28,812 nucleotides of DNA from a virus (Duplodnaviria; Heunggongvirae; Uroviricota; Caudoviricetes): IMG/VR virus record IMGVR_UViG_2693429623_000012; one strand, 5' to 3'. Below are positions 3,107 through 14,687 of this stretch, piece after piece. Position 1 is the stretch's first letter. Each line of letters starts with the position of its first letter. Below the pieces are notes generated by a model. The model had not been told where the DNA came from. It saw nothing but the letters and a program-made list of their open reading frames with translations, and did not search any database. The translations under genes and the position numbers were made by a program.

Positions 3107-3544
3107 TCAGCCAACAAATTTAGCAACAAATACAGCAACCGCCGCTGTGAAAATGGTTGTGCACACTGGCACAATAATGCCACTCCAACGCCACTTCGTA
3201 TTATCATCAACCTTGTCAAACCGCCGATTCATCTCATCCATAATCTTGTCAAAGCGTTTATCCATCGCTTCGGTAAGCTCACCCTTCAGGCTGTTAATGT
3301 CTGATTTGAGCTGCTCTTTCAGGTTAGCTGTATCAGATTTAAGCTCACCTTTCAGATTCGCAATATCGCATTCAAGATCACCTTTCAGATGTGCTATGTC
3401 TGCTTTGAGTTCACCTTTCACCTCACCAACATCGGCTTTAGTTGAGAGGTTTGTAGTGCGTTCAGCAAGCGTCGCAAGGTCGTTTCTTGTTAGCGATAAA
3501 TCACCTTCGAGCCGCTCAATTCGCCTTTCAAGTTTATCTGACAT
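3107..3544 (-). CDS. Membrane-anchored coiled-coil protein with five 11-residue (hendecad) repeats and one C-terminal TM helix; unknown function (alternative upstream start at 3661 gives 184 aa)
   Basis: ORF track 3107..3661. An internal ATG at 3544 is preceded by GGAGG (4-nt spacer) and gives MSDKLERRIERLEG... Repeats like ADIAHLKGDLE / CDIANLKGELK / SDTANLKEQLK; C-terminal hydrophobic segment IIVPVCTTIFTAAVAVFVAKFV. Lower GC than the flanking host genes. Confidence 0.6.
   Translation of the reverse strand: MSDKLERRIERLEGDLSLTRNDLATLAERTTNLSTKADVGEVKGELKADIAHLKGDLECDIANLKGELKSDTANLKEQLKSDINSLKGELTEAMDKRFDKIMDEMNRRFDKVDDNTKWRWSGIIVPVCTTIFTAAVAVFVAKFVG
3277..3441. repeat. Five imperfect tandem 33-bp repeats inside the coiled-coil cargo gene
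   Basis: Units start at 3277, 3310, 3343, 3376, 3409, for example gctcacctttcagattcgcaatatcgcattcaa and gatcacctttcagatgtgctatgtctgctttga; in frame, each encodes one 11-aa repeat. Confidence 0.85.
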
Positions 3545-3644
3545 TCCGCCTCCACTACTGCCGCCATCGCCACCATGATAAAGCACATCACGCTCAGAAT
3601 GCGACACACTACCTGCTGAATTACCGAAAAGATTTCTTGCTACA

Positions 3645-4178
3645 TTACCCATTATCACCATCCTGCGCTTTGTCTTTCTCCAACCACTTCAGCACCGCAG
3701 ACGTACGATAAAGGCTCAGGTAACCACAATTCAGGCAATGCAGCGTGTAATAAGTTTTGCGCATATCAGGTATGCTCTTAACATCACCCAAAAAAGCATA
3801 AGATACATAATGCTTTATGTTCTCTTTAATTAACTCACTCTGTTCCTCCAGGGGTAGATTGTTAAAATTTTCTGGTTTCTTATTTTTATCCCAGCAAAGA
3901 TCCATACTTTCTGGAACAGATAATCGCGACGATCCACATGAAGGGCAGACACTGGAGACCCCCTTCTCAGACAAGAAACGGAAGAAGATTTCTGGCGTAA
4001 TCTCCATCAGCCGCTCTTTATGTTTTNNNNNNNNNNNNNNNNNNNNNNNNNNNNNNNNNNNNNNNNNNNNNNNCGACTTCTTATTGATTTCATCAGCTTC
4101 TTCTTTGCATTTATCTTCTATATATTTCGATAGTAAATAGTCATATAACTCTTTTTTTGTAGGTTTTTTTATTTCCAT
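3645..4178 (-). CDS. Lys-rich protein with two CxxC pairs (CPSCG ... CLNCG), a putative zinc ribbon; unknown function; interrupted by an assembly gap so true length is uncertain
   Basis: ORF track 3645..4178 (16 X residues from the N run). Start ATG at 4178 lies 2 nt after the int stop (TAA at 4183-4181, minus strand) and is preceded by GGGAGGA inside the int 3' end. AT-rich (roughly 40% GC by eye). Confidence 0.55.
   Translation of the reverse strand: MEIKKPTKKELYDYLLSKYIEDKCKEEADEINKKSXXXXXXXXXXXXXXXXKHKERLMEITPEIFFRFLSEKGVSSVCPSCGSSRLSVPESMDLCWDKNKKPENFNNLPLEEQSELIKENIKHYVSYAFLGDVKSIPDMRKTYYTLHCLNCGYLSLYRTSAVLKWLEKDKAQDGDNG
4027..4073. other. Assembly gap (47 N)
   Basis: Run of n characters; not biological sequence. 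Confidence 0.99.
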
Positions 4179-4180
4179 AG

Positions 4181-5158
4181 TTACATTCCTCCCAAGGGAT
4201 TAAACCTCACCGCATCCTGCAAGTAATCCGGCGCAAGATGGGCATAAATCATCGTTGTCTGAATCTTTGCGTGCCCCAGAATTTTCTGGAGCGTCAGAAT
4301 ATTGCCGCCGTTCATCATGAAATGACTGGCGAAGGTGTGGCGCAGCGCATGAACAGCCTGGCCGTCAGGAACATCAGGTGCGACCGTTTTGATGACATCG
4401 CGAACCAATGAATAATCCAGCGTCGGAAACACCAGTTTCCCGCCCCGTTTTTTGATCTTTTCAAACAGGCTTTCAGAAATAGGAACGGTACGGTTTTTGC
4501 TGTTCTTCGTTTTTGAAAAAGTGATTCGACAATGAAGAACACGGCGCTGCTCCAGTGCCGCTACCTCGCCCCATCGCGCCCCGGTCGACAGAAGGATTTC
4601 GACGGCCAGCCGTTCATCGGGATTTTCAGCCAGTGCATCCAGCAACTGAACACATTCAGACTTACTCAGATATCCCATTTCACGCTCGTTAACCTTCATT
4701 CCTTTAAGGCCTTGAACGGGGTTATCGTTAAGAAAATGGCCGGATGAGATGAGTGCGGTAAACATCGCGCTTAACGCCCCAATCTCTCGATTTATGGTGC
4801 TGGGCTGTATCCCCTGCTCTATCCTGGACACACGTAGCTCGGTGAGCATCGTTGTATTAAGTTTATGCACGCACGGGTCATCCATTGCCTCACTCAAGCG
4901 CAGCAATTTAAGGCGCGTGTTATGCCCTGACTTCATTAGCTGGCCGTGGTATTTCCACCACAAGTCAATAAGCACTGACAGCGGACGGCGATCAATGGAG
5001 TTTCCTTTCCACTCATTGTTATGCTGTTGCGCCAGCACCCACCGCTCATATAAAACTGCATCCGATTTCGTTTTAAATTTTTTGCGAATGCGTTTGCCTT
5101 TACGCCCCTCAGGACGCATGTCAAGAAGATACCCTCCCGGAATTGATTTTATGCTCAT
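4181..5158 (-). CDS. int: Tyrosine site-specific integrase, P2 Int-like (about 325 aa)
   Basis: ORF track 4181..5308. Start moved to the ATG at 5158 (MSIKSIPGGYLLDMRPEGRKGKRIRKKF...), which aligns with the P2 Int N-terminus (MAIKKLDDGRYEVDIRPTGRNGKRIRRKF, recalled). C-terminal catalytic region HALRHTFASHFMMNGGNILTLQKILGHAKIQTTMIYAHLAPDYL carries the conserved R..H-x-x-R..Y motifs. Confidence 0.9.
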   Translation of the reverse strand: MSIKSIPGGYLLDMRPEGRKGKRIRKKFKTKSDAVLYERWVLAQQHNNEWKGNSIDRRPLSVLIDLWWKYHGQLMKSGHNTRLKLLRLSEAMDDPCVHKLNTTMLTELRVSRIEQGIQPSTINREIGALSAMFTALISSGHFLNDNPVQGLKGMKVNEREMGYLSKSECVQLLDALAENPDERLAVEILLSTGARWGEVAALEQRRVLHCRITFSKTKNSKNRTVPISESLFEKIKKRGGKLVFPTLDYSLVRDVIKTVAPDVPDGQAVHALRHTFASHFMMNGGNILTLQKILGHAKIQTTMIYAHLAPDYLQDAVRFNPLGGM

Positions 5159-5207
5159 TCGTGAAGCCCCAGCGTTACAAGACCACCATGCCCCCAGCGT
5201 TCCATGA

Positions 5208-5519
5208 TTAGCCGGGCTGTGTGCCAGTCTTGCGGGATTTTTGAGAAGACGATGTGTTTTCTGGCCCATCAGGGGAGAGAGAAGGACTGATCTGCCCAGC
5301 AGCCTCATTTGTTTCGTTACTCATCAACCACGTAGTGTATTTTTTAAATTCCGGGTGCATTGTGATTTTCAGTAAAACCTCCGTTCCCACACCTCGAATA
5401 CCAGTCTCGTATTGCTTAACCGTACCAACCGCAATACCTATTGAATCCGCGAACTTTGCCTGACTAAGCCCCTCAGATTCTCGAATTGCTTTTAGCTTCT
5501 TTGATATCTCTATTGACAT
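5208..5519 (-). CDS. Immunity repressor, P2 C-like (about 104 aa)
   Basis: ORF track 5208..5621; start moved to the ATG at 5519 (MSIEISKKLKAIRESEGLSQAKFADSIGIAVGTVKQYETG..., HTH). C-terminal part ...EFKKYTTWLMSNETNEAAGQISPSL... resembles P2 C (...QFTKYTLWFMTNQIAPESGQIAPAL..., recalled). Divergent from the cox-like gene, upstream of int. Confidence 0.8.
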   Translation of the reverse strand: MSIEISKKLKAIRESEGLSQAKFADSIGIAVGTVKQYETGIRGVGTEVLLKITMHPEFKKYTTWLMSNETNEAAGQISPSLSPDGPENTSSSQKSRKTGTQPG

Positions 5520-5614
5520 GGTGTGCACCTGAATACTATATTGGTTATCAGTTGAGTACCACTTGACGCTACAAAGAGCCACAAATAGCACCAGATTGAA
5601 TAGGTTATCACACC
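5520..5614. promoter_or_regulatory. Divergent lysogenic/early promoter-operator region between C and the cox-like gene
   Basis: 95-bp gap between divergently transcribed C (minus) and cox-like (plus) genes. Contains a direct repeat of GGTTATCA (5543-5550 and 5603-5610) with similar flanks (tattGGTTATCAg / aataGGTTATCAc) and a TTGACG hexamer at 5563-5568. Confidence 0.5.
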
Positions 5615-5893
5615 ATGGCAAAAGTCCTTAACACATACGAACAAGCGGATTTTGAGCGTTTGGCGGCGTTCTACCCATACCGTAATGAACATGGGCTACC
5701 GGTACTTGAAGAAAGCCTAGAGGATTATGCGAAACGCACAAATCAAAGCATTCTCGCTGTAAGAAGGCAGGCTGATAGATCGGTAATTCCCGTTACTCAA
5801 GAAGGAAGAAACACAAAACGCAAAGTAAATCTCTTCGCAATTTTCCTGAAAACCATCAGAAACGCAGAGAAATACGTGCAGATGACAAAATAA
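5615..5893 (+). CDS. Cox-like small early-operon protein (92 aa); assignment is positional
   Basis: First gene of the rightward early operon, divergent from C, about P2 Cox size (91 aa). I could not confirm sequence similarity to P2 Cox by eye. Confidence 0.5.
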   Translation: MAKVLNTYEQADFERLAAFYPYRNEHGLPVLEESLEDYAKRTNQSILAVRRQADRSVIPVTQEGRNTKRKVNLFAIFLKTIRNAEKYVQMTK

Positions 5894-5907
5894 CGAGGTG
5901 TCATTTT

Positions 5908-6246
5908 ATGCTGAAGCAACGCCGTAATTTTTGTACCGGAACAGAACGCCACGCTAACCGTTTCACTACCAGTGCATCACGCAGCAACATCCGCTACAGC
6001 CTGAGTGATACACACGCAACGCCGGATGGCTACCCAGTAAAACAAATCGGCGAGCACGCCTGGCTGATTGAGAAAGCTGGAATCGTGATCCACAAATGCC
6101 CACGCAATCCGTTTACCGGAAACCGCATTTTTGCACTGAGCTGTGGCGACAATCAGTTCGGGCAGGATTTCACATTATACGAAGCACTTCGCACGGTTGA
6201 TCGTCTGCTTCGCGGGCAAAGTTTTATTAAACAGGCTGATTTATAA
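5908..6246 (+). CDS. Hypothetical early-operon protein (112 aa)
   Basis: ORF track 5908..6246; GAGGTG 7 nt upstream of the ATG; no recognisable motif. Confidence 0.5.
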   Translation: MLKQRRNFCTGTERHANRFTTSASRSNIRYSLSDTHATPDGYPVKQIGEHAWLIEKAGIVIHKCPRNPFTGNRIFALSCGDNQFGQDFTLYEALRTVDRLLRGQSFIKQADL

Positions 6247-6256
6247 CAGGTGCTTT

Positions 6257-6544
6257 ATGACCAAAGACAATGCACAAGGTGTATTTATCCGTTTTATTGA
6301 TTTTCGCGGTGAACTGTTATTACGTGCATCCGCTATTGACGGAGTGACTCCGGCGGGTAAAAACGGAGCCGACGAAGCCACTTACGTTTATCTGAACGGC
6401 ACGCGACTGCTTGTGGAACTTCCGTACCAGACCGTACGAGAAATCATCAGCGAAGATGAAAAGGCACGCCAGGTTAATGGCGATGAACCCTATATCGAAA
6501 TTATTTGTATGGATTCAGAAGCTGAAATACAGAAAGCAGATTAA
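6257..6544 (+). CDS. Hypothetical early-operon protein (95 aa)
   Basis: ORF track 6143..6544 trimmed to the ATG at 6257 (MTKDNAQGVFIRF...) so it does not overlap the upstream gene; AGGTG just upstream. Confidence 0.45.
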   Translation: MTKDNAQGVFIRFIDFRGELLLRASAIDGVTPAGKNGADEATYVYLNGTRLLVELPYQTVREIISEDEKARQVNGDEPYIEIICMDSEAEIQKAD

Positions 6545-7953: not shown

Positions 7954-10776
7954 ATGACGGCAGAGTACATCAGGGACTGGCAACAACCGCGCCACGCAGT
8001 GGGGCGTGAAGGAACGGGGATCCCCGCTCCTGAATCCGCGCTTTCCTCCTGGCTGGATGCCCACCGGGCAGAGAACGAGCGCCGCCAGGAAATGGCTGAT
8101 GCGGCGTTCTCCGCCACGCCACTGGGCAACCTGATTAATAAAAGCCTGGACGCACAGGAAAAACAGGACAAAACCATCACACTGGCAGGAGACGCCAGAA
8201 AACAGGCACGCGGCGCGGTGGATGAAGCCATGGCCTCGCTGCGCCTGCTGCCGTCCTATCTGCGCGATCCGCTTATTCGCCACCTCTCCTTCCTGCGCAA
8301 AAAACAGGAAGCCGATCGCCGGAAAGGCAAAAAGAGCTGGCAGGCGGAACGCTATGCACGCGGAACCCTGCGCAAAATATTCGAACGTCTGGATCGCACT
8401 GACGGACACTGGCTGACACCGGGTTATCGCTCCCTTGCCGGACGTGAACGCCTGGACGATTTGCTTTACCTGCCGCAACTCAACAAACACCAGATACAGA
8501 CGCTGGCCACCATGACGGCGGCGATGTTCAGCAGCACCTTCGAAAAACTCTGCGATGGTTTTGGCGCGACTGATGGCGAGCTGACCATGGATGTAACGCT
8601 GAAGGCGTATCAGATGCTGGCCCGCATGGCGTTACACTTACACGCCATGCCTCCGCATTATGACGCACTGACAACAGACAAAGACCGGAGGCACGAACCG
8701 GACACAGAACTGCTGCCGGGCGCAATCCTTCGCCTGACCTGTGCGGAATGGTGGAAACGCAAACTGTGGCTGTTACGTTGCGAGTGGAGAGAAGAACAAC
8801 TTCGCGCCGCCTGTCTGGTTTCCAGAAAAACATCGCCCTATCTGAGCCAGGACGCGTTAAGCGAGTTTCGCGCACAGCGCGAGAAAACACGCGATTTCCT
8901 GAAAAGTTTCATGCTGGAAAATGAAGACGGGTTCACGATTGATCTCGAGACGGTGTATTACGCGGGAGTAAGTAACCCGGTTCACCGTAAGGCAGAAATG
9001 ATGGCCACCATGAAGGGGCTGGAACTTCTGGCCGAAGCCCGTGGCGACAAAGCGGTGTTTCTGACTGTCACCTGCCCGTCAAAATACCACGCCACAACGG
9101 AGAACGGTCATCCGAATCCCAAATGGAACGGGGCCACAATGCGCGACTCCAGCGATTACCTGGTTAACACGTTTTTTGCGACGGTCCGCAAAAAACTGAA
9201 CCGCGACGGCCTGCGCTGGTATGGCATCCGCACGGCGGAGCCTCACCATGACGGCACCGTGCACTGGCATATGATGGTCTTTGCTCATCCGGAAGAAATC
9301 GACACCATTGTGTCCCACACCCGCGATATTGCCATTCAGGAAGATCGTCACGAGCTGGGCGATGACATAACTCCGCGCTTTAAGGCGGAGTATGTAGACG
9401 GCTCAAAAGGCACGCCAACCAGCTACATCGCCACCTACATCGGGAAAAACCTGGACAGCCGCGCCGTGGATGGCATCGACCCGAAAACGGGCAAGCCACG
9501 CGTTGACCACGAAACCGGAAAATCAATGGCCGAGAGCGTGGAACGCGCCATCGGCTGGGCGCGCCTTCACCGGGTCCGCCAGTTCCAGTTCTTTGGCATC
9601 CCCTCCCGCCAGGTATGGCGTGAACTGCGCCGCCTTGCCAGCCAGATGGCACGCAACCCGGAAGGCCCGCAACGGCTGAAGGATGACGCAATGGATGCGG
9701 TTCTTGCCGCCGCTGATGCCGGATGTTTTGCCACCTACATAGAGAAACAGGGCGGCGTACTTGTTCCACGCAAAGACTACCTGATTCGCACCGCCTACGA
9801 CCTCGCCGATGAGCTGAACGATTACGGCGAACAGAGCGTACAGATTTACGGGATCTGGTCACCACTCATCGGGGAATCCTCCCGTGTGTGCACGCATCCG
9901 GATAACTGGAAGCTGGTAAGACGCAAACCGGAAGCGGAAGACAGCGCCCGCGAAAATGGTTTTGACCTTCAGGGCGGCCCTGCCGCCCCTTGGACTCGTG
10001 GCAATAACTGTCCCCGTGTACAGGAAACGGACAACAACGGGACAGAACAGCCGGAAGAACGGCCAGCACCGTGGCCGCAGCTCCCTGACGGCGTTGATGT
10101 GGATGAATGGATGCGCTCACTGAAACGGCACGAACGCCGGGCGCTGATGCGTTCGCTTCGTGACAAACAGGCAAAAAACAGCAGTGATGAAATGCAGAGC
10201 TGGACACAGAGCCGCAAACAGCAGCGGCCTTTGCCTGATAACCACGAATTACTCGCTAAAGAATGGCGGGAGTCTGCTGAATCTCTCGGCCTGCATATCG
10301 GTGAACAACAGATGCAGCACCTGTTACGGGGCGGCAGTCTGTACGTTGACGGCAGCATCATTGCACCGCAGGGATTTGAAATTGTACGCAAACCGGATAC
10401 CCGCCCGGACAGCCGAATCACGCAGCTCTGGCAGCGCCTGAGCCGTAATCATGGCGTAAGCAGCACGGAGATCCGCCATAACCCGGTCGCCAGCTATCTG
10501 ACACAGCTGGGGGCATCAGACCCTGAAGCCGCCGCACGCCTGGCATCCACACTTCAGCAGGACCAGAACACCATGAAAACACCCGTTACCGTGCTTTCTG
10601 ACATGCTGCGCGCCATCCGCGACGCAGAGCACGCACAGAGAATCAGTGAAACCACTGAACGCGCCCGCCGCAAAGCAGACCTGCTGCGGGGTGGCCTGAC
10701 CAGTGGAAACAAAAAACAGACAGAAACGGGACTCACGAATCCCGTAAATGAGCAAAAAACGCGCAGCGATATATGA
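7954..10776 (+). CDS. A: Rolling-circle replication initiation endonuclease, P2 gpA family (940 aa, long C-terminal extension)
   Basis: HUH motif HWHMMVF encoded at 9262-9282 (residues 437-443) and paired catalytic tyrosines Y-x3-Y (SYIATYIGKN, 9421-9450, residues 491 and 495), as in P2 A; position after the early ORFs matches P2. Confidence 0.9.
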   Translation: MTAEYIRDWQQPRHAVGREGTGIPAPESALSSWLDAHRAENERRQEMADAAFSATPLGNLINKSLDAQEKQDKTITLAGDARKQARGAVDEAMASLRLLPSYLRDPLIRHLSFLRKKQEADRRKGKKSWQAERYARGTLRKIFERLDRTDGHWLTPGYRSLAGRERLDDLLYLPQLNKHQIQTLATMTAAMFSSTFEKLCDGFGATDGELTMDVTLKAYQMLARMALHLHAMPPHYDALTTDKDRRHEPDTELLPGAILRLTCAEWWKRKLWLLRCEWREEQLRAACLVSRKTSPYLSQDALSEFRAQREKTRDFLKSFMLENEDGFTIDLETVYYAGVSNPVHRKAEMMATMKGLELLAEARGDKAVFLTVTCPSKYHATTENGHPNPKWNGATMRDSSDYLVNTFFATVRKKLNRDGLRWYGIRTAEPHHDGTVHWHMMVFAHPEEIDTIVSHTRDIAIQEDRHELGDDITPRFKAEYVDGSKGTPTSYIATYIGKNLDSRAVDGIDPKTGKPRVDHETGKSMAESVERAIGWARLHRVRQFQFFGIPSRQVWRELRRLASQMARNPEGPQRLKDDAMDAVLAAADAGCFATYIEKQGGVLVPRKDYLIRTAYDLADELNDYGEQSVQIYGIWSPLIGESSRVCTHPDNWKLVRRKPEAEDSARENGFDLQGGPAAPWTRGNNCPRVQETDNNGTEQPEERPAPWPQLPDGVDVDEWMRSLKRHERRALMRSLRDKQAKNSSDEMQSWTQSRKQQRPLPDNHELLAKEWRESAESLGLHIGEQQMQHLLRGGSLYVDGSIIAPQGFEIVRKPDTRPDSRITQLWQRLSRNHGVSSTEIRHNPVASYLTQLGASDPEAAARLASTLQQDQNTMKTPVTVLSDMLRAIRDAEHAQRISETTERARRKADLLRGGLTSGNKKQTETGLTNPVNEQKTRSDI

Positions 10777-10821
10777 AGCGCGCACAAAACAGGCAAAAAC
10801 GGGATTTCAGAATCCCGTAAA
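10724..10821. repeat. Two copies of a 25-bp element AAACGGGAyTyAsGAATCCCGTAAA, each an inverted repeat (ACGGGA/TCCCGT); candidate parC-like centromere, operator or replication signal
   Basis: Copy 1 at 10724-10748 (inside the A 3' end), copy 2 at 10797-10821 (intergenic), 73 bp apart, just upstream of the ParM-like gene. Confidence 0.5.
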
Positions 10822-10852
10822 CGATTAATTAATCAACATAAGGAAAAGCGAC

Positions 10853-11812
10853 ATGAAAATTTGTATCGACGACGGCTCCACCAACATCAAGCTGGCATGG
10901 ACTGAGAACGGCGAACGCCGCAACGCCATCAGCCCGAACAGCTTCAAGTCGGAATGGTCTGCGCCGTTCGGTGGCATGCAGCCCGCGAACTACATGCTTG
11001 ATGGCGTGCGCTATGGTTTTGATCCGGTCAGCGATCGCTTTGTCCAGACAACCGACACGCAATACCAGTACAGCGATGTAAATGTCATTGCCATTCATCA
11101 CGCGCTGGTCAAATCAGGCATCACGCCACAGGAGGTGGATGTGGTTGTCACCCTGCCACTGAGCGAGTATTTCGACACAAACGCACAGCCGGACATGGCC
11201 AACATCAACCGCAAAAAAGCGAACGTTATGCGCCCGGTGGAGTACCAGAACGGCGAAGCATTCACTATCCGTAACGTGCGGGTTATGCCTGAATCCATTC
11301 CGGCTGGCTTTAAGGCACTGGCTGACATGAGTCCGTTTGAATCCCTGCTGATTGTGGATTTGGGCGGAACCACGCTGGATGTGGCAAAGGTTCAGGGGCA
11401 ACTGGCAGGTATCAGCCAGGTGTTTTGCGATCCACACGTAGGCGTTTCTCTGATGGCCGATGCCGTACTGTCGGTGATGGCCACTAACGGTATGCGCACC
11501 AGTCACCACATCGCCAATACCATTATCGAACATCGCCATGATGAAGCCTGGCTGCGCCAGCACATCCACAATGACGCGCATTACGCCAGCCTGATGGCGG
11601 TTATTCGTGAAAAGGAAGAAACACTGAAACAACGCGTGATCCGCGCGCTGGCGGGTTTTTCGGGTTACGGGCGGGTGATGGTTGTCGGTGGAGGGGCGGA
11701 GATTGTGGCACCCGCTATCCGCGAAGCCTGCGGAGTTAATGCGACTTTCATCGCGGACGGGGTGCCACAGTTTGCTCTGGTTAATGGGCTGTACGCAATG
11801 GACAAGGAGTAA
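10853..11812 (+). CDS. Actin-like segregation ATPase, ParM/StbA family (319 aa)
   Basis: N-terminus MKICIDDGSTNIKLAW...ISPNSFKSEW...YSDVNVIAIHHAL closely parallels plasmid R1 ParM (MLVFIDDGSTNIKLQW...ISPNSFKREW...YSDVNVVAVHHAL, recalled); AAGGAAAAG upstream. Confidence 0.85.
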   Translation: MKICIDDGSTNIKLAWTENGERRNAISPNSFKSEWSAPFGGMQPANYMLDGVRYGFDPVSDRFVQTTDTQYQYSDVNVIAIHHALVKSGITPQEVDVVVTLPLSEYFDTNAQPDMANINRKKANVMRPVEYQNGEAFTIRNVRVMPESIPAGFKALADMSPFESLLIVDLGGTTLDVAKVQGQLAGISQVFCDPHVGVSLMADAVLSVMATNGMRTSHHIANTIIEHRHDEAWLRQHIHNDAHYASLMAVIREKEETLKQRVIRALAGFSGYGRVMVVGGGAEIVAPAIREACGVNATFIADGVPQFALVNGLYAMDKE

Positions 11813-11816
11813 ACCA

Positions 11817-12128
11817 ATGACGACACCAACCAGACGGATAAGTTTCTATCTGAAGCCTGCGGCCGTCAAGAACGAAAGCGAAGCATGCGCCTGGCTGGGC
11901 AGCCTTACACCAGAAGCCCGCAAAAGCGGCCAACGCGTGGCTTTTCTGGCCGGGCTGGCACTTCTGAAAATGAATCCAGCAGAGGCTTACCGACTGGCTG
12001 CATGGGCTGACGATGAGGCGTTATCGGTGACACAAACCAGGACAGAACGCCCCGTGCCACAGCCAGTACCAACCGCACAGATAACCAGTCAGATAGCAGG
12101 GAATATCCGGGCATTATTTCCTGAATGA
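11817..12128 (+). CDS. Putative ParR-like partition adaptor (103 aa)
   Basis: In-frame ATG 5 nt after the parM-like stop. Weak but collinear resemblance to R1 ParR: RRISFYLKP vs RRTIAFKLNP, AGLAL core, C-terminal IRALFPE vs ILRSLFPKE (recalled). Confidence 0.55.
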   Translation: MTTPTRRISFYLKPAAVKNESEACAWLGSLTPEARKSGQRVAFLAGLALLKMNPAEAYRLAAWADDEALSVTQTRTERPVPQPVPTAQITSQIAGNIRALFPE

Positions 12129-12188
12129 CGAATTTGACGGCTTTTAATTTTATCGGGGTGCACTGTCGCCCCGCACGAGGAAAACACG

Positions 12189-12713
12189 ATGAAAAAATAC
12201 GAATACATGCTAATGAAAGAAGCACTGCGGGCTGGTCTGGCTCCCTGTCCTGTATCCGTAGAAGCTGTTGTTGGGAACACGATTTTCCGAACGCTGCGAA
12301 ATCGCGTATCCGTGAAGATGGTTCACCAACCACCCAAATCTACCAGCATGATCTATCTGCCGCTGCCCGAGGCTATCAAACTTATGCGTTCGCTGAAATT
12401 TGCGATTTGGATGCAGACACAAATCAACAAAGCGGTGCAAAACACCTTCGTTAAGAGACTAATACCGGAGCTTGCTGCCAGATGTGCAAAATGTACCAGA
12501 CCCGCACTTCAATTTGATCTGTCATTGATTCAACAAGCTACGGAGGCAGAACTGTACCGCCTGTCACCTATCCGTGATGCTCACACGGAAGCATCAGAAA
12601 TGTTCCGGCTCATGTTTCAATTTAATTTTGCCGTTCGACGCACACGCGTTCAGGTCAATCGCATGATGCAGGAGCAGGAAGAGTTAACACAGTACAAAGG
12701 GGGCAGCCAGTGA
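12189..12713 (+). CDS. Hypothetical protein (174 aa), accessory-locus cargo
   Basis: ORF track 12189..12713; GAGGA upstream; no recognisable motif. Confidence 0.5.
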   Translation: MKKYEYMLMKEALRAGLAPCPVSVEAVVGNTIFRTLRNRVSVKMVHQPPKSTSMIYLPLPEAIKLMRSLKFAIWMQTQINKAVQNTFVKRLIPELAARCAKCTRPALQFDLSLIQQATEAELYRLSPIRDAHTEASEMFRLMFQFNFAVRRTRVQVNRMMQEQEELTQYKGGSQ

Positions 12714-12949
12714 GTAATTCAGCACGACTACAGCTTGGTTTTTCACCGCTATCAAAAACCATCGTATTGGCAAAAATGCGTGACTTAGGAGACGGAACAA
12801 AACGCCGCGTAGGAAATGATCGCGGTCGCGATGTAACCAACGAGGCCGCTCAACTCGTTTGGCATCTAGTCATGGCAGAAGGCGGTGAAATTAATTGGGA
12901 GCTGGATGATGGTTCTCGTATGATTTTGAGGGCCGAGAAGAGTAAATAG
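12710..12949 (+). CDS. Hypothetical protein (79 aa), accessory-locus cargo
   Basis: ORF track 12710..12949; start overlaps the upstream stop (ATGA). Confidence 0.45.
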   Translation: MSNSARLQLGFSPLSKTIVLAKMRDLGDGTKRRVGNDRGRDVTNEAAQLVWHLVMAEGGEINWELDDGSRMILRAEKSK

Positions 12950-12963
12950 CTCAAGGGGGATTA

Positions 12964-13149
12964 ATGCTAAATGATGATGAAGAAGAGCTGCTTATGCAGG
13001 AATGGTCGCTCGGTGATTATGATAATGGTGAAAATGGGTGCCCGCATTGTGGCCGTTATCGTTTATGTATCTGCCAGAATGGAAAACACAGATGTGAAAA
13101 GTGCAATTGGTCTCCGGAACTTAATGACTACGTGCCGATCGAGTGGTAG
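12964..13149 (+). CDS. Small Cys-rich putative zinc-binding protein (61 aa)
   Basis: ORF track 12964..13149; CPHCGRYRLCICQNGKHRCEKCNW has at least two CxxC pairs. Confidence 0.45.
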   Translation: MLNDDEEELLMQEWSLGDYDNGENGCPHCGRYRLCICQNGKHRCEKCNWSPELNDYVPIEW

Positions 13150-13189
13150 AGGTAAGTCACACTAGGTGTTTTTTAGTTGATTTTATAAA

Positions 13190-13216
13190 TGCACAATAGT
13201 GCACAAATTTGCACAA
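13190..13216. repeat. Three TGCACAA heptamers phased exactly 10 bp apart
   Basis: TGCACAA at 13190-13196, 13200-13206, 13210-13216, with a fourth at 13282-13288. Nearby: direct repeat GGATCCGT (13260-13267 and 13271-13278) and a perfect 16-bp palindrome AAAAAACGCGTTTTTT (13288-13303). Confidence 0.8.
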
Positions 13217-13640
13217 TTTTTTTGAACGACTTTTTGCCCTTCCGGCCCGCGTGGCGGCTGGATCCGTCAAGGATCCGTGCATGCACAAAAAAACGCGTTT
13301 TTTCTGCGCGCAGGTGACGGGGGAACAGCCCGCGTTTCAGGGGGTAAATAGCATTCCCTGAACGATGTCGCAGAGATACAACAGAATGGCTGTATTTCTC
13401 ACGCTGAGCGTGAAAAAGACGTGAGGGCTTTTGATTTGATGGGGTGAAAGGTAAGGCCGTCAAAATCGCACTGAGACGGCGAGAATATGCAGTCAACGAG
13501 GTGGGATTGCGTAAGAGTCTGACTGTCGATGATGGCAATCAGCAGGAAAGCGTCGTGAAATTATCTGACTGATACAGGAGCTGGAGAGTCGGGGCATAAA
13601 TTTTTTATGCCCCGGCGAAGCAGCAGACAAGCGAAGCGCG

Positions 13641-14687
13641 TCAGGATGTGGGCTGGGTGTCTAACAGTGCGTAAGGGTTAAAGCGGATCACCTCTTCGCC
13701 AAGCCAGTCATTGATGTGCTTCATGGCCTCCATGACGGGCATCAGCTCGTTAATTGCGTAAACCCGCGCGGCCTTCTCCACATCACCAAACGCACTTTTT
13801 TCGCCCGGCATCGCCCCCATCAGTTGCGGCGGAACGCGGTGCGCAGCCAGCACATCATCACGGGATGCCGCCTTAACATTCATGAACTCATCCTTTGCGG
13901 TGATCTGCTGGAACGGCAAAATTTGCACCCCCTCTTTGCCCCCGTTGGGCGCATGAATGAGCACGTTTTTAAACGCACCACCACCACGTGCCCCCTGTAG
14001 CGTTTCTTTCAGGGAGTCCATGCTTTCGCGGTTTACCTGCGCTGCACCGATGTAGATGATGCACCCGGCGTGGGATCCGTTGTCGTAGTACAGTTTTCTG
14101 AACATGTCCGCCGAATGAGAAAGGCTGGCCGAGAGTAATGCGCCAAGATATTCCGGCATGCCGTAGATTTCCTGGTTAATATCCGGATTCATCAGGTGGC
14201 ACACTTTGCCAGGACGAAACTGAAACGCATCCTTGCCATCCTGCACATACCACCATGATTCAAGATCGCTTCCGCGTCGCATGTATTTCGCCAGGGCGTG
14301 CCGTAATTTAAGCGGTTCGCCGAGCATATTGCTCCGAAGCTCAAGGAATGCGTTACCGAACACAAACCAGTCCAGCGCCAGCGCCGAGAAATCCTGCCGG
14401 GAAAGCAGCGGGTGCGGAATATAGCAGCCGAGCAATACATTGCGCTTAAAGTAAAGCGCAGACTGATGCCAGGACGTTTGCCGGGCAGCTCTTGCCAGAC
14501 CGTACCAGTCCACCGGGGTTTCATACCACCGCCCGTTATCAGCACAGTACATATTGTCCAGCAGGTCATGCCCGGTCAGGCGGTAAGGACCATCAAATGT
14601 GAATGCACTGAGCGACGATTCTTTCCTGAGCGCATCAGCGAGATCAATGCGTGAACTCATGCGCACTTTTTTATTTTTTCTGCTCAT
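13641..14687 (-). CDS. Q: Portal protein, P2 gpQ-like (348 aa)
   Basis: ORF track 13641..14687; size and position match P2 Q (last gene of the leftward P-Q operon); start codon overlaps the P stop. Confidence 0.85.
   Translation of the reverse strand: MSRKNKKVRMSSRIDLADALRKESSLSAFTFDGPYRLTGHDLLDNMYCADNGRWYETPVDWYGLARAARQTSWHQSALYFKRNVLLGCYIPHPLLSRQDFSALALDWFVFGNAFLELRSNMLGEPLKLRHALAKYMRRGSDLESWWYVQDGKDAFQFRPGKVCHLMNPDINQEIYGMPEYLGALLSASLSHSADMFRKLYYDNGSHAGCIIYIGAAQVNRESMDSLKETLQGARGGGAFKNVLIHAPNGGKEGVQILPFQQITAKDEFMNVKAASRDDVLAAHRVPPQLMGAMPGEKSAFGDVEKAARVYAINELMPVMEAMKHINDWLGEEVIRFNPYALLDTQPTS

What the first reader, a model, noticed from the sequence alone, without database searches (positions are those of the whole stretch)
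10853..12128. Plasmid-type ParM/ParR-like partition cassette inside an integrating P2-like prophage
The 319-aa protein is a clear ParM/StbA actin-like ATPase, followed 5 nt later by a small ParR-like gene. The cassette occupies the variable locus between A and the portal gene, where P2 carries tin and old and which has been reported as a hotspot for anti-phage cargo. An active-segregation system in a phage that also has an integrase is unexpected. It may indicate an episomal (phage-plasmid) lifestyle or stabilisation of replicative intermediates. It may also be a co-opted cytoskeletal module working with the three downstream unknown ORFs.
Basis: partly seen in the sequence, partly recalled or inferred. 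Interest (0 to 1): 0.7.

Follow-up and report, generated by a model that had tools for sequence, protein, structure and literature searches.

The report
ParM-ParR module of P88-like prophage
A plasmid-style actin-like DNA-segregation gene pair (parM-parR) does sit between the replication gene and the head genes of this integrated P2-family prophage, but it is an already-annotated, lineage-conserved feature of the common P88-like phages (about a quarter of E. coli genomes), and its role in an integrating phage has been remarked on but never tested.

Summary
Window 10853-11812 encodes a full-length ParM. It matches Pfam StbA_N at 2.7e-82 and the ParM C-terminal domain at 1.3e-68, and is 47% identical to crystallised R1 ParM. 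Window 11817-12128 encodes a 103-aa ParR (Pfam PF10784 at 2e-23; a profile hits pB171 ParR, 2JD3).

The cassette is not new. It is 99.7% identical to gp17/gp18 of phage P88 and occurs in about 1,300 of 5,426 complete E. coli genomes, with 1,453 chromosomal places against 2 plasmid places. Rousset et al. 2022 already noted that about a quarter of P2-like phages carry a "putative plasmid partitioning system" at this locus.

It is also not variable cargo:
- It is nearly fixed in the lineage that has this gpA type.
- parM is intact in 88 of 88 loci, with dN/dS of 0.03-0.13.
- ParM relatives at 54-63% identity in Hafnia, Plesiomonas, Serratia and Enterobacter sit in the same gpA-parM-parR-cargo-portal position.
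- All plasmid ParMs are 52% identical or less.

The variable hotspot starts downstream of, or inside the 3' half of, parR.

My best reading is inferred, not shown. I think this is a working ParMRC-type module that is co-transcribed with the early replication operon and positions or segregates extrachromosomal circular phage DNA transiently. Stable plasmid lysogeny is poorly supported, and so is a link to the three downstream ORFs. Interest is low to moderate.

The parts
5513..5542 (+). Promoter-like site (TTGACA-18-TATATT, 11 of 12 matches) in front of the rightward early genes. I infer it is the start of the transcription unit that contains gpA, parM and parR.
   Evidence: No strong plus-strand terminator-like site lies between here and 13199. 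This is a consensus match only, and function is inferred.
7954..10776 (+). gpA, the rolling-circle replication endonuclease (940 aa). It lies directly upstream of parM, and its last codons overlap repeat unit A.
   Evidence: Pfam Phage_GPA at 6.6e-131 and phrog_91. It is 97.5% nt identical to P88 gp16.
10710..10751 (.). Repeat unit A (42 nt) holding the palindrome ACGGGACT-CACG-AATCCCGT (10726-10745). This is the first half of the candidate parC/operator and lies inside the 3' end of gpA.
   Evidence: An analogous two-copy arrangement with 72-nt spacing, its first copy also inside gpA, is present in the Plesiomonas relative L012.
10783..10824 (.). Repeat unit B (42 nt, 81% identical to A, 73 nt from A) holding the perfect palindrome ACGGGATT-TCAG-AATCCCGT (10799-10818), 35 nt before the parM start codon. 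This is the second half of the candidate parC/operator. On the minus strand it also fits a terminator pattern.
   Evidence: It is present in all 85 close relatives, with variable loops and single-arm changes only.
10853..11812 (+). parM, an actin-like partition ATPase of 319 aa.
   Evidence: It is intact in 88 of 88 related loci, with dN/dS of 0.03-0.13.
11817..12128 (+). parR, a 103-aa adaptor. Residues 1-63 form a conserved N-terminal domain, predicted to be a ribbon-helix-helix DNA-binding domain. Residues 64-95 are a hypervariable linker. The C-terminal motif NI(R/Q)xxFPE is invariant and is shared with plasmid ParRs.
12189..13149 (+). Three small cargo ORFs: 12189-12713 (no family match), 12710-12949 (DUF7446) and 12964-13149 (zinc-ribbon-like). 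These are the variable hotspot proper and are not part of the partition module.
   Evidence: no PADLOC hit. This segment is absent from most relatives.
13199..13224 (+). Terminator-like hairpin GTGCACAAATTTGCAC followed by a T-run. I infer it is the end of the rightward transcription unit.

Best explanation
This is a complete and probably functional type II (ParMRC-like) DNA-positioning module. It is a vertically inherited core component of the P88-like (Xuanwuvirus) branch, and of a wider clade, of P2-family temperate phages. It is not accessory cargo and not a plasmid fragment.

Proposed mechanism:
1. parM and parR are transcribed as the distal part of the rightward early (replication) unit that contains gpA. 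They would therefore be made when the phage genome is extrachromosomal and replicating, after infection or after excision.
2. ParR dimers bind the two palindromic sites immediately upstream of parM (10726-10745 and 10799-10818).
3. The invariant C-terminal ParR tail captures the ends of ATP-ParM filaments.
4. Filament growth pushes the monomeric circular phage genomes produced by gpA rolling-circle replication apart.
5. This spreads or segregates the genomes. It could help efficient replication and packaging, or inheritance by both daughter cells before integration or lysis.

Shown: gene identities, intactness, purifying selection, conserved synteny, a phage-specific ParM clade, and the chromosomal location of nearly all copies.

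Inferred: timing of expression, the identity of the centromere, filament activity, and the benefit to the phage.
For: Identity:
- ParM matches the Pfam and PDB ParM families with all nucleotide-binding motifs present.
- ParR matches PF10784 and pB171 ParR, 2JD3.
- ParR shows the expected three-part architecture. Its C-terminal motif is shared with IncF and IncK plasmid ParRs and with D6 StbB.

Core status, not cargo:
- The same 14 phage records carry this gpA 3' end and parM.
- The gpA segment occurs in 1,355 E. coli genomes, against about 1,300 with parMR.
- parM is intact in 88 of 88 loci with dN/dS of 0.03-0.13. It is more conserved than gpA.

Ancient phage association:
- ParMs at 54-63% identity in Hafnia, Plesiomonas, Serratia and Enterobacter all lie in the order gpA, parM, parR, variable cargo, portal, terminase.
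- ParMs at 52% identity or less lie in plasmids or ICEs.
- A neighbour-joining tree groups the phage copies without any sequence of known plasmid context.

Transcription:
- A strong promoter-like site lies at 5513-5542.
- No plus-strand terminator pattern occurs before 13199, and no sigma-70 consensus lies between gpA and parM.

Centromere candidate:
- The unique two-copy palindrome lies directly upstream of parM.
- A parallel 72-nt-spaced pair occurs in the Plesiomonas lineage, where it has no terminator shape.
- The motif GGCAAAAACGGGA is shared with the Serratia and Enterobacter lineages.

Precedent: the integrated prophage CGP3 uses an actin-like protein (AlpC) and an adaptor (AlpA). These are induced early and are needed for efficient replication of the excised circle (PMC4446434).
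Against: - There are no expression, binding or imaging data for this module.
- The candidate centromere has only two sites, whereas R1 parC has ten iterons (the R1 figure is from my own knowledge). The plasmid relatives examined have 300-400 nt of repeat-rich upstream DNA.
- Across 85 relatives the palindrome arms are no more conserved than their flanks. They change on one arm only, with no compensating change.
- Both palindromes also fit a minus-strand intrinsic-terminator pattern.
- A lytic cycle does not obviously need segregation. P2, 186 and roughly three quarters of P2-like phages do without the module.
- An unrecognised parR-regulated promoter could make the module lysogen-expressed instead.
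Confidence: 0.5

Rival explanations
1. Plasmid-prophage maintenance. The module would let these phages persist as low-copy plasmids, stably or conditionally, as an alternative to integration. This phage-plasmid lifestyle is the first reader's idea and the suggestion made in Rousset et al. 2022.
For: - The cassette is a bona fide plasmid-type partition system.
- The same ParM family serves the phage-plasmid D6, at 47.8% identity.
- A complete 34,461-bp P88-like genome with integrase and parMR is deposited as a circular 'plasmid', NZ_CP148288.1.
- Phages 520873 and 503458 were deposited as separate replicons of E. coli assemblies.
- The suggestion is published (PMC9122126).
Against: - There are 1,453 chromosomal against 2 plasmid places in complete E. 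coli genomes.
- Only two phage-sized records occur among 72,556 plasmids.
- Every lineage examined keeps an integrase or is embedded in a chromosome.
- The only replication initiator I identified is the rolling-circle endonuclease gpA. I did not find a plasmid-type, copy-controlled replicon.
- A parMR-less P2-like phage (500465-2) was also deposited as a separate replicon. Such records therefore do not depend on the module.
Confidence: 0.17
2. A conflict or exclusion function expressed in the lysogen. ParR and ParM made from the prophage would interfere with incoming elements that carry a cognate centromere. Targets could be related P2-like phages, satellites or plasmids, and the effect would be partition incompatibility or mis-segregation. 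This would fit the neighbourhood of a defence hotspot.
For: - The module borders the gpA-gpQ defence hotspot.
- ParR shows at least 8 allele groups with a hypervariable linker. That pattern is sometimes seen in conflict genes.
- The downstream cargo is exchanged frequently.
Against: - No PADLOC defence model matches.
- The parts of ParR that make contacts are invariant. These are the N-terminal strand, whose first 17 residues are identical between alleles, and the C-terminal tail. The variable part is a spacer.
- ParM is almost invariant, so there is no sign of an arms race.
- tblastn with this ParR finds no plasmid homologue, only prophage copies, so the ParR family is specific to these phages.
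Confidence: 0.1
3. An inert remnant of an old plasmid capture, or a module that works together with the three downstream ORFs as a co-opted cytoskeletal device.
For: - The candidate centromere is minimal, with only two sites.
- The three downstream ORFs are uncharacterised.
Against: - parM is intact in 88 of 88 loci, dN/dS is 0.03-0.13, and synteny is kept across genera at 54-63% identity. These argue against decay.
- The downstream ORFs differ among relatives: HicAB in one, a KAP NTPase in another, other sets elsewhere.
- The full window arrangement is seen in only 30 of 1,570 matching genomes.
- ORF4 homologues occur in lambdoid phages and in plasmids of about 90 kb.
Confidence: 0.05

Closest known systems
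gp17/gp18 of Escherichia phage P88 (NC_026014; Xuanwuvirus, Peduoviridae), plus the same pair in Citrobacter phage phiSM and in P2-like prophages of E. coli O157:H7
   Same: Same genes at the same position. ParM is 99.7% identical at the amino-acid level, parR is 94.5% identical at the nucleotide level, and the upstream repeats are the same. The pair is annotated as 'plasmid segregation protein ParM' and 'partition protein'.
   Different: Only the cargo downstream of parR and a few substitutions differ. P88 has different small ORFs between parR and the portal gene.
ParMRC of plasmid R1 (type II partition; ParM structures 1MWK and 4A62)
   Same: - ParM is full length and 47% identical, with all nucleotide-binding motifs present.
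- The gene order is parM then parR, with candidate binding sites upstream of parM.
- ParR is a small protein of the same Pfam family.
   Different: - It sits in an integrated, virion-forming phage and not in a low-copy plasmid.
- ParR is shorter: 103 aa, against 138-140 aa in the IncF and IncK plasmid relatives examined.
- The upstream DNA is 76 nt of intergenic sequence with two palindromes, one of which reaches into gpA, and is not a long iteron array.
- No plasmid ParM is more than 52% identical.
ParR/StbB of plasmid pB171 (PDB 2JD3)
   Same: A profile of the phage ParR family aligns residues 9-75 to residues 11-76 of the solved N-terminal DNA-binding domain, at E=1e-3.
   Different: The similarity is weak. 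The single sequence alone gives no PDB hit, and the AlphaFold monomer model was too poor (pLDDT 56) to compare folds.
AlpC/AlpA of the integrated Corynebacterium glutamicum prophage CGP3
   Same: This is the functional analogue. An integrated prophage encodes an actin-like filament former and a co-transcribed DNA-binding adaptor whose site lies upstream of the operon. Both are induced early and are needed for efficient replication of the excised circular phage DNA (PMC4446434).
   Different: The host phylum and the phage type differ. Sequence relatedness to AlpC and AlpA was not tested here. The gene order is described as alpAC, whereas here parM precedes parR.
StbA/StbB of phage-plasmid D6 (P1-like)
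   Same: A phage genome with an R1-type ParM (47.8% identical) followed by a StbB-type ParR. D6's annotators themselves noted the similarity to P88 StbA.
   Different: D6 is a 91-kb extrachromosomal prophage. It has about 270 nt of repeat-rich DNA (TTCTCAA motifs) upstream of its parM. The present phage is integrative.
The gpA-gpQ hotspot of P2-like phages (tin and old in P2)
   Same: Same genomic interval. The literature counts the partition system among the 'systems' found there, in about a fourth of P2-like phages (PMC9122126).
   Different: parMR behaves as a fixed flank of the hotspot and not as exchangeable cargo. It matches no defence model.

Membership tests
Type II (ParMRC) partition system | An actin-fold ATPase (ParM) with the conserved nucleotide-binding motifs | tested here: met
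   Pfam StbA_N at 2.7e-82 and the ParM C-terminal domain at 1.3e-68. R1 ParM scores E=8.5e-93 with 47% identity over 316 residues. The motifs IDDGSTNIK, PESIPAG, DLGGTTLD and GGGAE are conserved.
Type II (ParMRC) partition system | A small ParR adaptor encoded immediately downstream, with an N-terminal ribbon-helix-helix DNA-binding domain | tested here: met
   The gene starts 4 nt after parM. It matches Pfam PF10784 at 2e-23 (82 bits, cut-off 25). A profile hits pB171 ParR (2JD3) at E=1e-3 over the DNA-binding domain. The fold itself was not confirmed, because the AlphaFold monomer model has pLDDT 56.
Type II (ParMRC) partition system | A C-terminal ParR segment that binds ParM | tested here: inconclusive
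   The C-terminal motif NI(R/Q)xxFPE is invariant in 17 diverse phage ParRs. Similar motifs end the plasmid ParRs (NNIKNLFPD, RNAENMF) and D6 StbB. A helix is predicted at residues 86-100. Binding to ParM was not testable.
Type II (ParMRC) partition system | A cis-acting centromere (parC) of repeated ParR-binding sites next to parM, overlapping its promoter | tested here: inconclusive
   Two 42-nt repeats with 20-bp palindromes lie 35 and 108 nt upstream of parM and are unique in the window. A parallel arrangement occurs in the Plesiomonas lineage. However, there are only two sites, no promoter consensus, and no extra conservation of the arms. A minus-strand terminator reading is also possible.
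Type II (ParMRC) partition system | ATP-dependent filament formation that moves DNA | not testable with these tools
   This needs biochemistry or imaging.
Type II (ParMRC) partition system | Residence on, and stabilisation of, a low-copy extrachromosomal replicon | tested here: not met
   The element is integrated next to btuC and has a tyrosine integrase. There are 1,453 chromosomal against 2 plasmid places in complete E. coli genomes.
Phage-plasmids (P1, D6, N15 and SSU5 type) | The prophage is maintained extrachromosomally, with a plasmid-type replicon and usually no chromosomal integration | tested here: not met
   An integrase and a host junction are present. The only replication initiator I identified is gpA, a rolling-circle endonuclease. 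Only 2 phage-sized records occur among 72,556 plasmids.
P2-family (Peduoviridae) temperate phages, P88-like lineage | P2-type gene order: int, repressor, cox, then gpA; portal and terminase divergent from scaffold and capsid; P2-type tail genes | tested here: met
   The window's ORFs and Pfam hits fit this order. There is 94-99% nt identity to P88 across gpA, parM and parR, and the gene order matches P88.
Anti-phage cargo of the gpA-gpQ hotspot (tin/old-like) | Patchy presence among otherwise similar phages, and/or a match to known defence families | tested here: not met
   The pair is nearly fixed with this gpA type. It is conserved in synteny across genera. There is no PADLOC match.
AlpAC-type prophage cytoskeleton (CGP3) | Early induction on excision, and a requirement for efficient replication of the excised phage circle | not testable with these tools
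   Only the operon context is suggestive. The literature precedent is PMC4446434.

The most novel reading that the evidence does not exclude
A phage-specific clade of ParMRC has been kept for a long time by one branch of integrative P2-family phages. In this reading it acts as a small viral cytoskeleton. It would organise or segregate the monomeric circular genomes made by gpA rolling-circle replication. Alternatively it would support a heritable, unintegrated carrier phase. Either way, an 'integrating' phage would have a regulated episomal stage in which active partition matters. A reduced two-site centromere partly embedded in the replication gene would be part of this adaptation.
Probability: 0.3. 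Interest if true: 0.6.

Novelty: already known. Interest (0 to 1): 0.3.

Why it matters
About a quarter of E. coli genomes carry this module, yet I found no test of what a plasmid partition machine does for a phage that integrates. If it positions replicating phage circles, it would extend the AlpAC and PhuZ idea of phage-encoded cytoskeletons to small temperate enterobacterial phages. If it supports an unintegrated carrier state, that would change how P2-like 'prophages' are counted and how their cargo spreads.

There is also a practical point. Surveys of the gpA-gpQ defence hotspot should treat parM-parR as a conserved flank and not as cargo. As a database-level observation, though, the finding is ordinary and already published.

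Tried and rejected
- **PADLOC defence models.** I scanned all five proteins of the interval and found nothing.
- **Rfam.** I scanned 10500-13700 at E up to 1 and found nothing.
- **ParR against PDB.** The single sequence gave no hit. Only the 17-sequence profile reached pB171 ParR.
- **AlphaFold model of ParR.** The monomer model was too poor (pLDDT 56, pTM 0.28) for a fold search. This is expected for an obligate-dimer fold, so I ran no fold search.
- **tblastn of ParR against 72,556 plasmids.** It found only seven records, all prophage-type copies. Plasmid ParRs had to be taken from next to ParM hits instead.
- **Promoter scans.** Scans between gpA and parM in the window and in three divergent lineages gave no usable sigma-70 site. 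The hits in L013 and L014 overlap the start codon.
- **Variation test on the palindromes.** Across 85 relatives the arms are no more conserved than the flanks. All changes are on one arm only, and the wobble-compatible changes favour neither strand. The test therefore cannot separate a protein-binding site from a hairpin.
- **Genome-contig scan.** A single-protein query returned only near-identical copies. Divergent relatives came from the protein search plus contig look-ups.
- **Literature on expression.** Searches for CP-933T parMR expression found nothing usable.
- **'Fragment of an adjacent integrated plasmid'.** Rejected, because the cassette is inside the packaged P88 genome.
- **'Recent capture from a plasmid'.** Rejected, because no plasmid ParM lies between 60% and 95% identity.
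Full report
**1. What is at the coordinates**

The ORF at 10853-11812 (+) encodes a 319-aa protein.
- It matches the two Pfam domains of ParM end to end: StbA_N at 2.7e-82 and the ParM C-terminal domain at 1.3e-68.
- It matches the PHROG family annotated 'partition protein', phrog_691, at 3.4e-90.
- Against solved structures its best matches are the R1 ParM chains, at E=8.5e-93 over residues 2-316. BLASTP gives 47% identity.
- The phosphate-binding and adenosine motifs are conserved: IDDGSTNIK, PESIPAG, DLGGTTLD and GGGAE.

Four bases after its stop codon, an ATG at 11817 opens a 103-aa ORF that ends at 12128.
- The mechanically listed ORF starts earlier, at a TTG at 11682 inside parM.
- The 103-aa protein matches Pfam Plasmid_stab_B (PF10784) at 2e-23 and phrog_2515 'partition protein' at 2.3e-56.
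- A single-sequence search of PDB finds nothing. A profile of 17 homologues hits the DNA-binding domain of pB171 ParR/StbB (2JD3) at E=1e-3.

**2. Context**

The left end of the window is E. coli chromosome: an NlpC/P60 gene followed by btuD, btuE and btuC. Then come:
- two small phage-family ORFs;
- a tyrosine integrase (4181-5308, minus strand);
- an HTH repressor;
- a promoter-like site at 5513-5542 that matches the consensus at 11 of 12 positions;
- a tight rightward gene string ending in gpA (7954-10776; Phage_GPA at 6.6e-131).

After parM and parR come three small ORFs. The first has no family match, the second is DUF7446, and the third looks like a zinc ribbon. None matches a PADLOC model. 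A plus-strand terminator-like hairpin follows at 13199-13224. Next is a block of about 400 nt next to the portal gene, which I take to be the cos region from my own knowledge of P2. The leftward portal and terminase genes come last. This is an integrated P2-family prophage.

**3. It is a known, very common element**

- Phage P88 (Xuanwuvirus, Peduoviridae) has the same pair, gp17 and gp18, at the same place. Its ParM is 99.7% identical.
- In all, 14 phage records carry it, including Citrobacter phage phiSM.
- In 5,426 complete E. coli genomes the 1,276-nt cassette matches in 1,307 genomes, at 1,453 chromosomal and 2 plasmid places. RefSeq names the two genes 'plasmid segregation protein ParM' and 'plasmid partitioning/stability family protein'.
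- The C. rodentium prophage paper lists it as a 'fitness' cargo gene (PMC6456863).
- Rousset et al. [quoted passage not shown]

My searches found no functional study.

**4. It is not hotspot cargo but a conserved lineage module**

*(a) Fixation with this gpA type.* The 3' end of this gpA type and parM occur in exactly the same 14 phage records. A gpA segment is found at 80% coverage or more in 1,355 E. coli genomes, against about 1,300 with parMR.

*(b) Intactness and selection.* parM is intact in all 88 related loci I collected. It is 96-99.5% identical at the nucleotide level, against 88.6-97.7% for gpA. Its dN/dS against seven relatives is 0.03-0.13.

*(c) Variable downstream region.* The stretch between parR and the portal gene varies from 988 to 4,167 nt. 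Only 30 of 1,570 genomes share the window's arrangement over at least 80% of the query.

*(d) Synteny across genera.* A protein search found ParMs at 54-63% identity in Hafnia, Plesiomonas, Serratia and Enterobacter. All four that I looked up show the same order:
- gpA, then 0-2 small genes;
- ParM, then a PF10784 ParR;
- variable cargo (HicAB in one, a KAP NTPase in another);
- in two of them Ogr, then portal and terminase.

By contrast, three ParMs at 49-50% identity lie in an ICE with Tra genes or next to Rep3, umuDC and ArdA plasmid genes. None of more than 5,000 plasmid ParMs falls between 60% and 95% identity, and the best are at 52%. A neighbour-joining tree of 109 ParMs places the window and the four phage-context sequences in a 16-leaf clade that contains no sequence of known plasmid context. 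That tree is a simple distance tree without bootstrap.

The association of this ParMR lineage with P2-family phages is therefore old and maintained by selection.

**5. Anatomy of ParR**

Alignment of 17 phage ParRs and of 83 loci shows three parts:
- Residues 1-63 are conserved. The first 17 residues, which include the RRISFYLKP strand expected to contact DNA, are identical between alleles that are otherwise only 52% identical.
- Residues 64-95 are a hypervariable linker, with at least eight allele groups.
- The tail NI(R/Q)xxFPE is invariant.

IncF and IncK plasmid ParRs end in the same kind of motif (NNIKNLFPDDE, RNAENMFGDD), and so do D6 StbB and the four divergent phage ParRs. From my own knowledge of R1 (Gayathri et al. 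2012), the C-terminal peptide of ParR is what binds ParM. The conservation pattern fits that role, but I did not test binding. The AlphaFold monomer model was poor (pLDDT 56). It does place helices at residues 20-61 and 86-100 around a disordered linker.

**6. Candidate centromere**

Directly upstream of parM are two copies of a 42-nt unit, at 10710-10751 and 10783-10824, 73 nt apart start to start. Each holds a 20-bp palindrome, ACGGGAyT-N4-AATCCCGT. The first copy lies within the last codons of gpA. The palindrome occurs nowhere else in the window, against 0 expected by chance.

Evidence in favour of a centromere or operator:
- The Plesiomonas lineage has an analogous pair, GCGGGACAAC..., with 72-nt spacing. 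Its first copy is also inside gpA, and it has no hairpin or terminator shape.
- The Serratia and Enterobacter lineages keep a GGCAAAAA(C/T)GGGAA motif next to a long AT-rich inverted repeat.
- The DNA-contacting strand of ParR is nearly the same in all these lineages, which fits a shared GGGA-type half-site.

Evidence against:
- There are only two sites.
- Across 85 close relatives the arms are no better conserved than the flanks. They change on one arm at a time with no compensating change.
- Both palindromes also fit a minus-strand intrinsic-terminator pattern.

I therefore call this a candidate parC/operator and not a demonstrated one.

**7. How it most likely works**

No plus-strand terminator pattern lies between the strong promoter-like site at 5513-5542 and 13199. 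No sigma-70 consensus lies between gpA and parM, either here or in three divergent lineages. The simplest inference is that parMR is the distal part of the early replication operon. That operon is repressed in the lysogen and expressed when the genome is an extrachromosomal circle, after infection or excision.

From established P2 biology (my own knowledge), gpA-driven rolling-circle replication yields monomeric double-stranded circles, which are also the packaging substrate. A ParMRC machine acting on such circles would push them apart.

The nearest documented precedent is the integrated prophage CGP3. Its actin-like AlpC and adaptor AlpA are induced early, bind a site upstream of their operon, and are needed for efficient replication of the excised circle (PMC4446434).

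My confidence by step:
- Identity and intactness of the module: near certainty.
- Core-lineage status: about 0.85.
- The transient-episome mechanism: about 0.45-0.5.

**8. Rivals**

*Stable plasmid lysogeny* is weakly supported. One complete 34.4-kb P88-like genome is deposited as a circular plasmid, and two other parMR-positive phages were deposited as separate replicons. But a parMR-less P2-like phage (500465-2) was too. The 1,453:2 ratio of chromosomal to plasmid places and the near absence from PLSDB argue against it as a normal lifestyle. So does the lack of any copy-controlled replicon that I could recognise.

*A conflict or incompatibility role* is not excluded, but it has no support beyond the neighbourhood and the variability of the ParR linker.

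*Decay* is contradicted by the selection data, and *functional coupling to the three downstream ORFs* by the distribution data.

**9. Verdict**

The feature is real and correctly identified. It is already annotated and already remarked on in the literature, and it belongs to a known kind of system (type II ParMRC).

This analysis adds three points:
- The module is a conserved flank of the gpA-gpQ hotspot and not cargo.
- It defines a phage-specific ParM/ParR clade that spans several genera of Enterobacterales.
- Its ParR is compact, and its candidate centromere has two sites and partly overlaps gpA.

Its function in an integrative phage is still an open question that can be tested by experiment. 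That keeps the interest above zero but modest.

Noticed in passing
window 3107-4178 (minus strand): Two ORFs lie between the host btuC gene and the phage integrase. One encodes a 184-aa coiled-coil protein (phrog_9415, with only weak coiled-coil-type hits to LmuB and ZorA models). The other encodes a 177-aa protein (phrog_4293, with a faint zinc-ribbon match). P88 has nothing at this position, so this looks like a second, integrase-proximal cargo site of unknown function.
   Followed up: partly
window 11868-12100 (parR codons ~18-95): The middle of parR is hypervariable. There are at least 8 allele groups among 83 loci, and alleles are as little as 52% identical. parM, the first 17 codons of parR and its last 8 codons stay fixed. 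In about half of the E. coli genomes, DNA homology to the window breaks at about 11871. The left edge of the recombination hotspot may therefore lie inside parR.
   Followed up: partly
window 13190-13224: TGCACAA is repeated three times at a 10-bp period and overlaps a plus-strand terminator-like hairpin followed by a T-run. The block next to the portal gene (13190-13640) is also conserved at 97% in a P2-like phage that lacks parMR (phage 500465-2). It probably holds the end of the early transcript and packaging signals.
   Followed up: no
window 12710-12949: The DUF7446 ORF, which RefSeq calls ead/Ea22-like, has copies at 80-92% nt identity in lambdoid phages, in a Yersinia phage and in many plasmids of 48-93 kb. 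This small gene therefore moves between unrelated mobile elements.
   Followed up: no
window 12189-12713: This 174-aa ORF has no match in Pfam, NCBIfam, PHROGs or PADLOC. The window's full parMR-plus-cargo arrangement is shared by only about 30 of the 1,570 matching E. coli genomes.
   Followed up: no
window 7954-10776: This gpA is 940 aa, but the Pfam GPA domain covers only residues 179-503. The C-terminal 440 or so residues match only phage families of unknown function (phrog_6857, phrog_14885). The very last codons overlap the first parMR-associated repeat.
   Followed up: no
L003 (E. coli O157:H7 strain 2571) 3850-6314: The O157:H7 copy sits in a degraded prophage. An IS3 pseudogene follows parR directly, and the head genes are gone. 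Palindrome B has decayed to GCGGGATTTAAAAATCCTGT. The parM and parR ORFs are still intact.
   Followed up: partly
L007 (contig titled Vagococcus sp. WN89Y): A 226-kb contig assigned to a Gram-positive Vagococcus genome carries a 98% identical Escherichia-type gpA-parM-parR region. This is most likely contamination or a mis-binned contig.
   Followed up: no
L005 (NZ_CP148288.1, 34,461 bp): A complete P88-like phage genome is deposited as a circular, non-mobilizable 'plasmid' of an E. coli isolate from a cat. It has the integrase, parMR and all structural genes, and in the record the integrase end adjoins the opposite end of the phage genome, as expected for an excised circle. I could not check whether the same strain also has an integrated copy.
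   Followed up: partly
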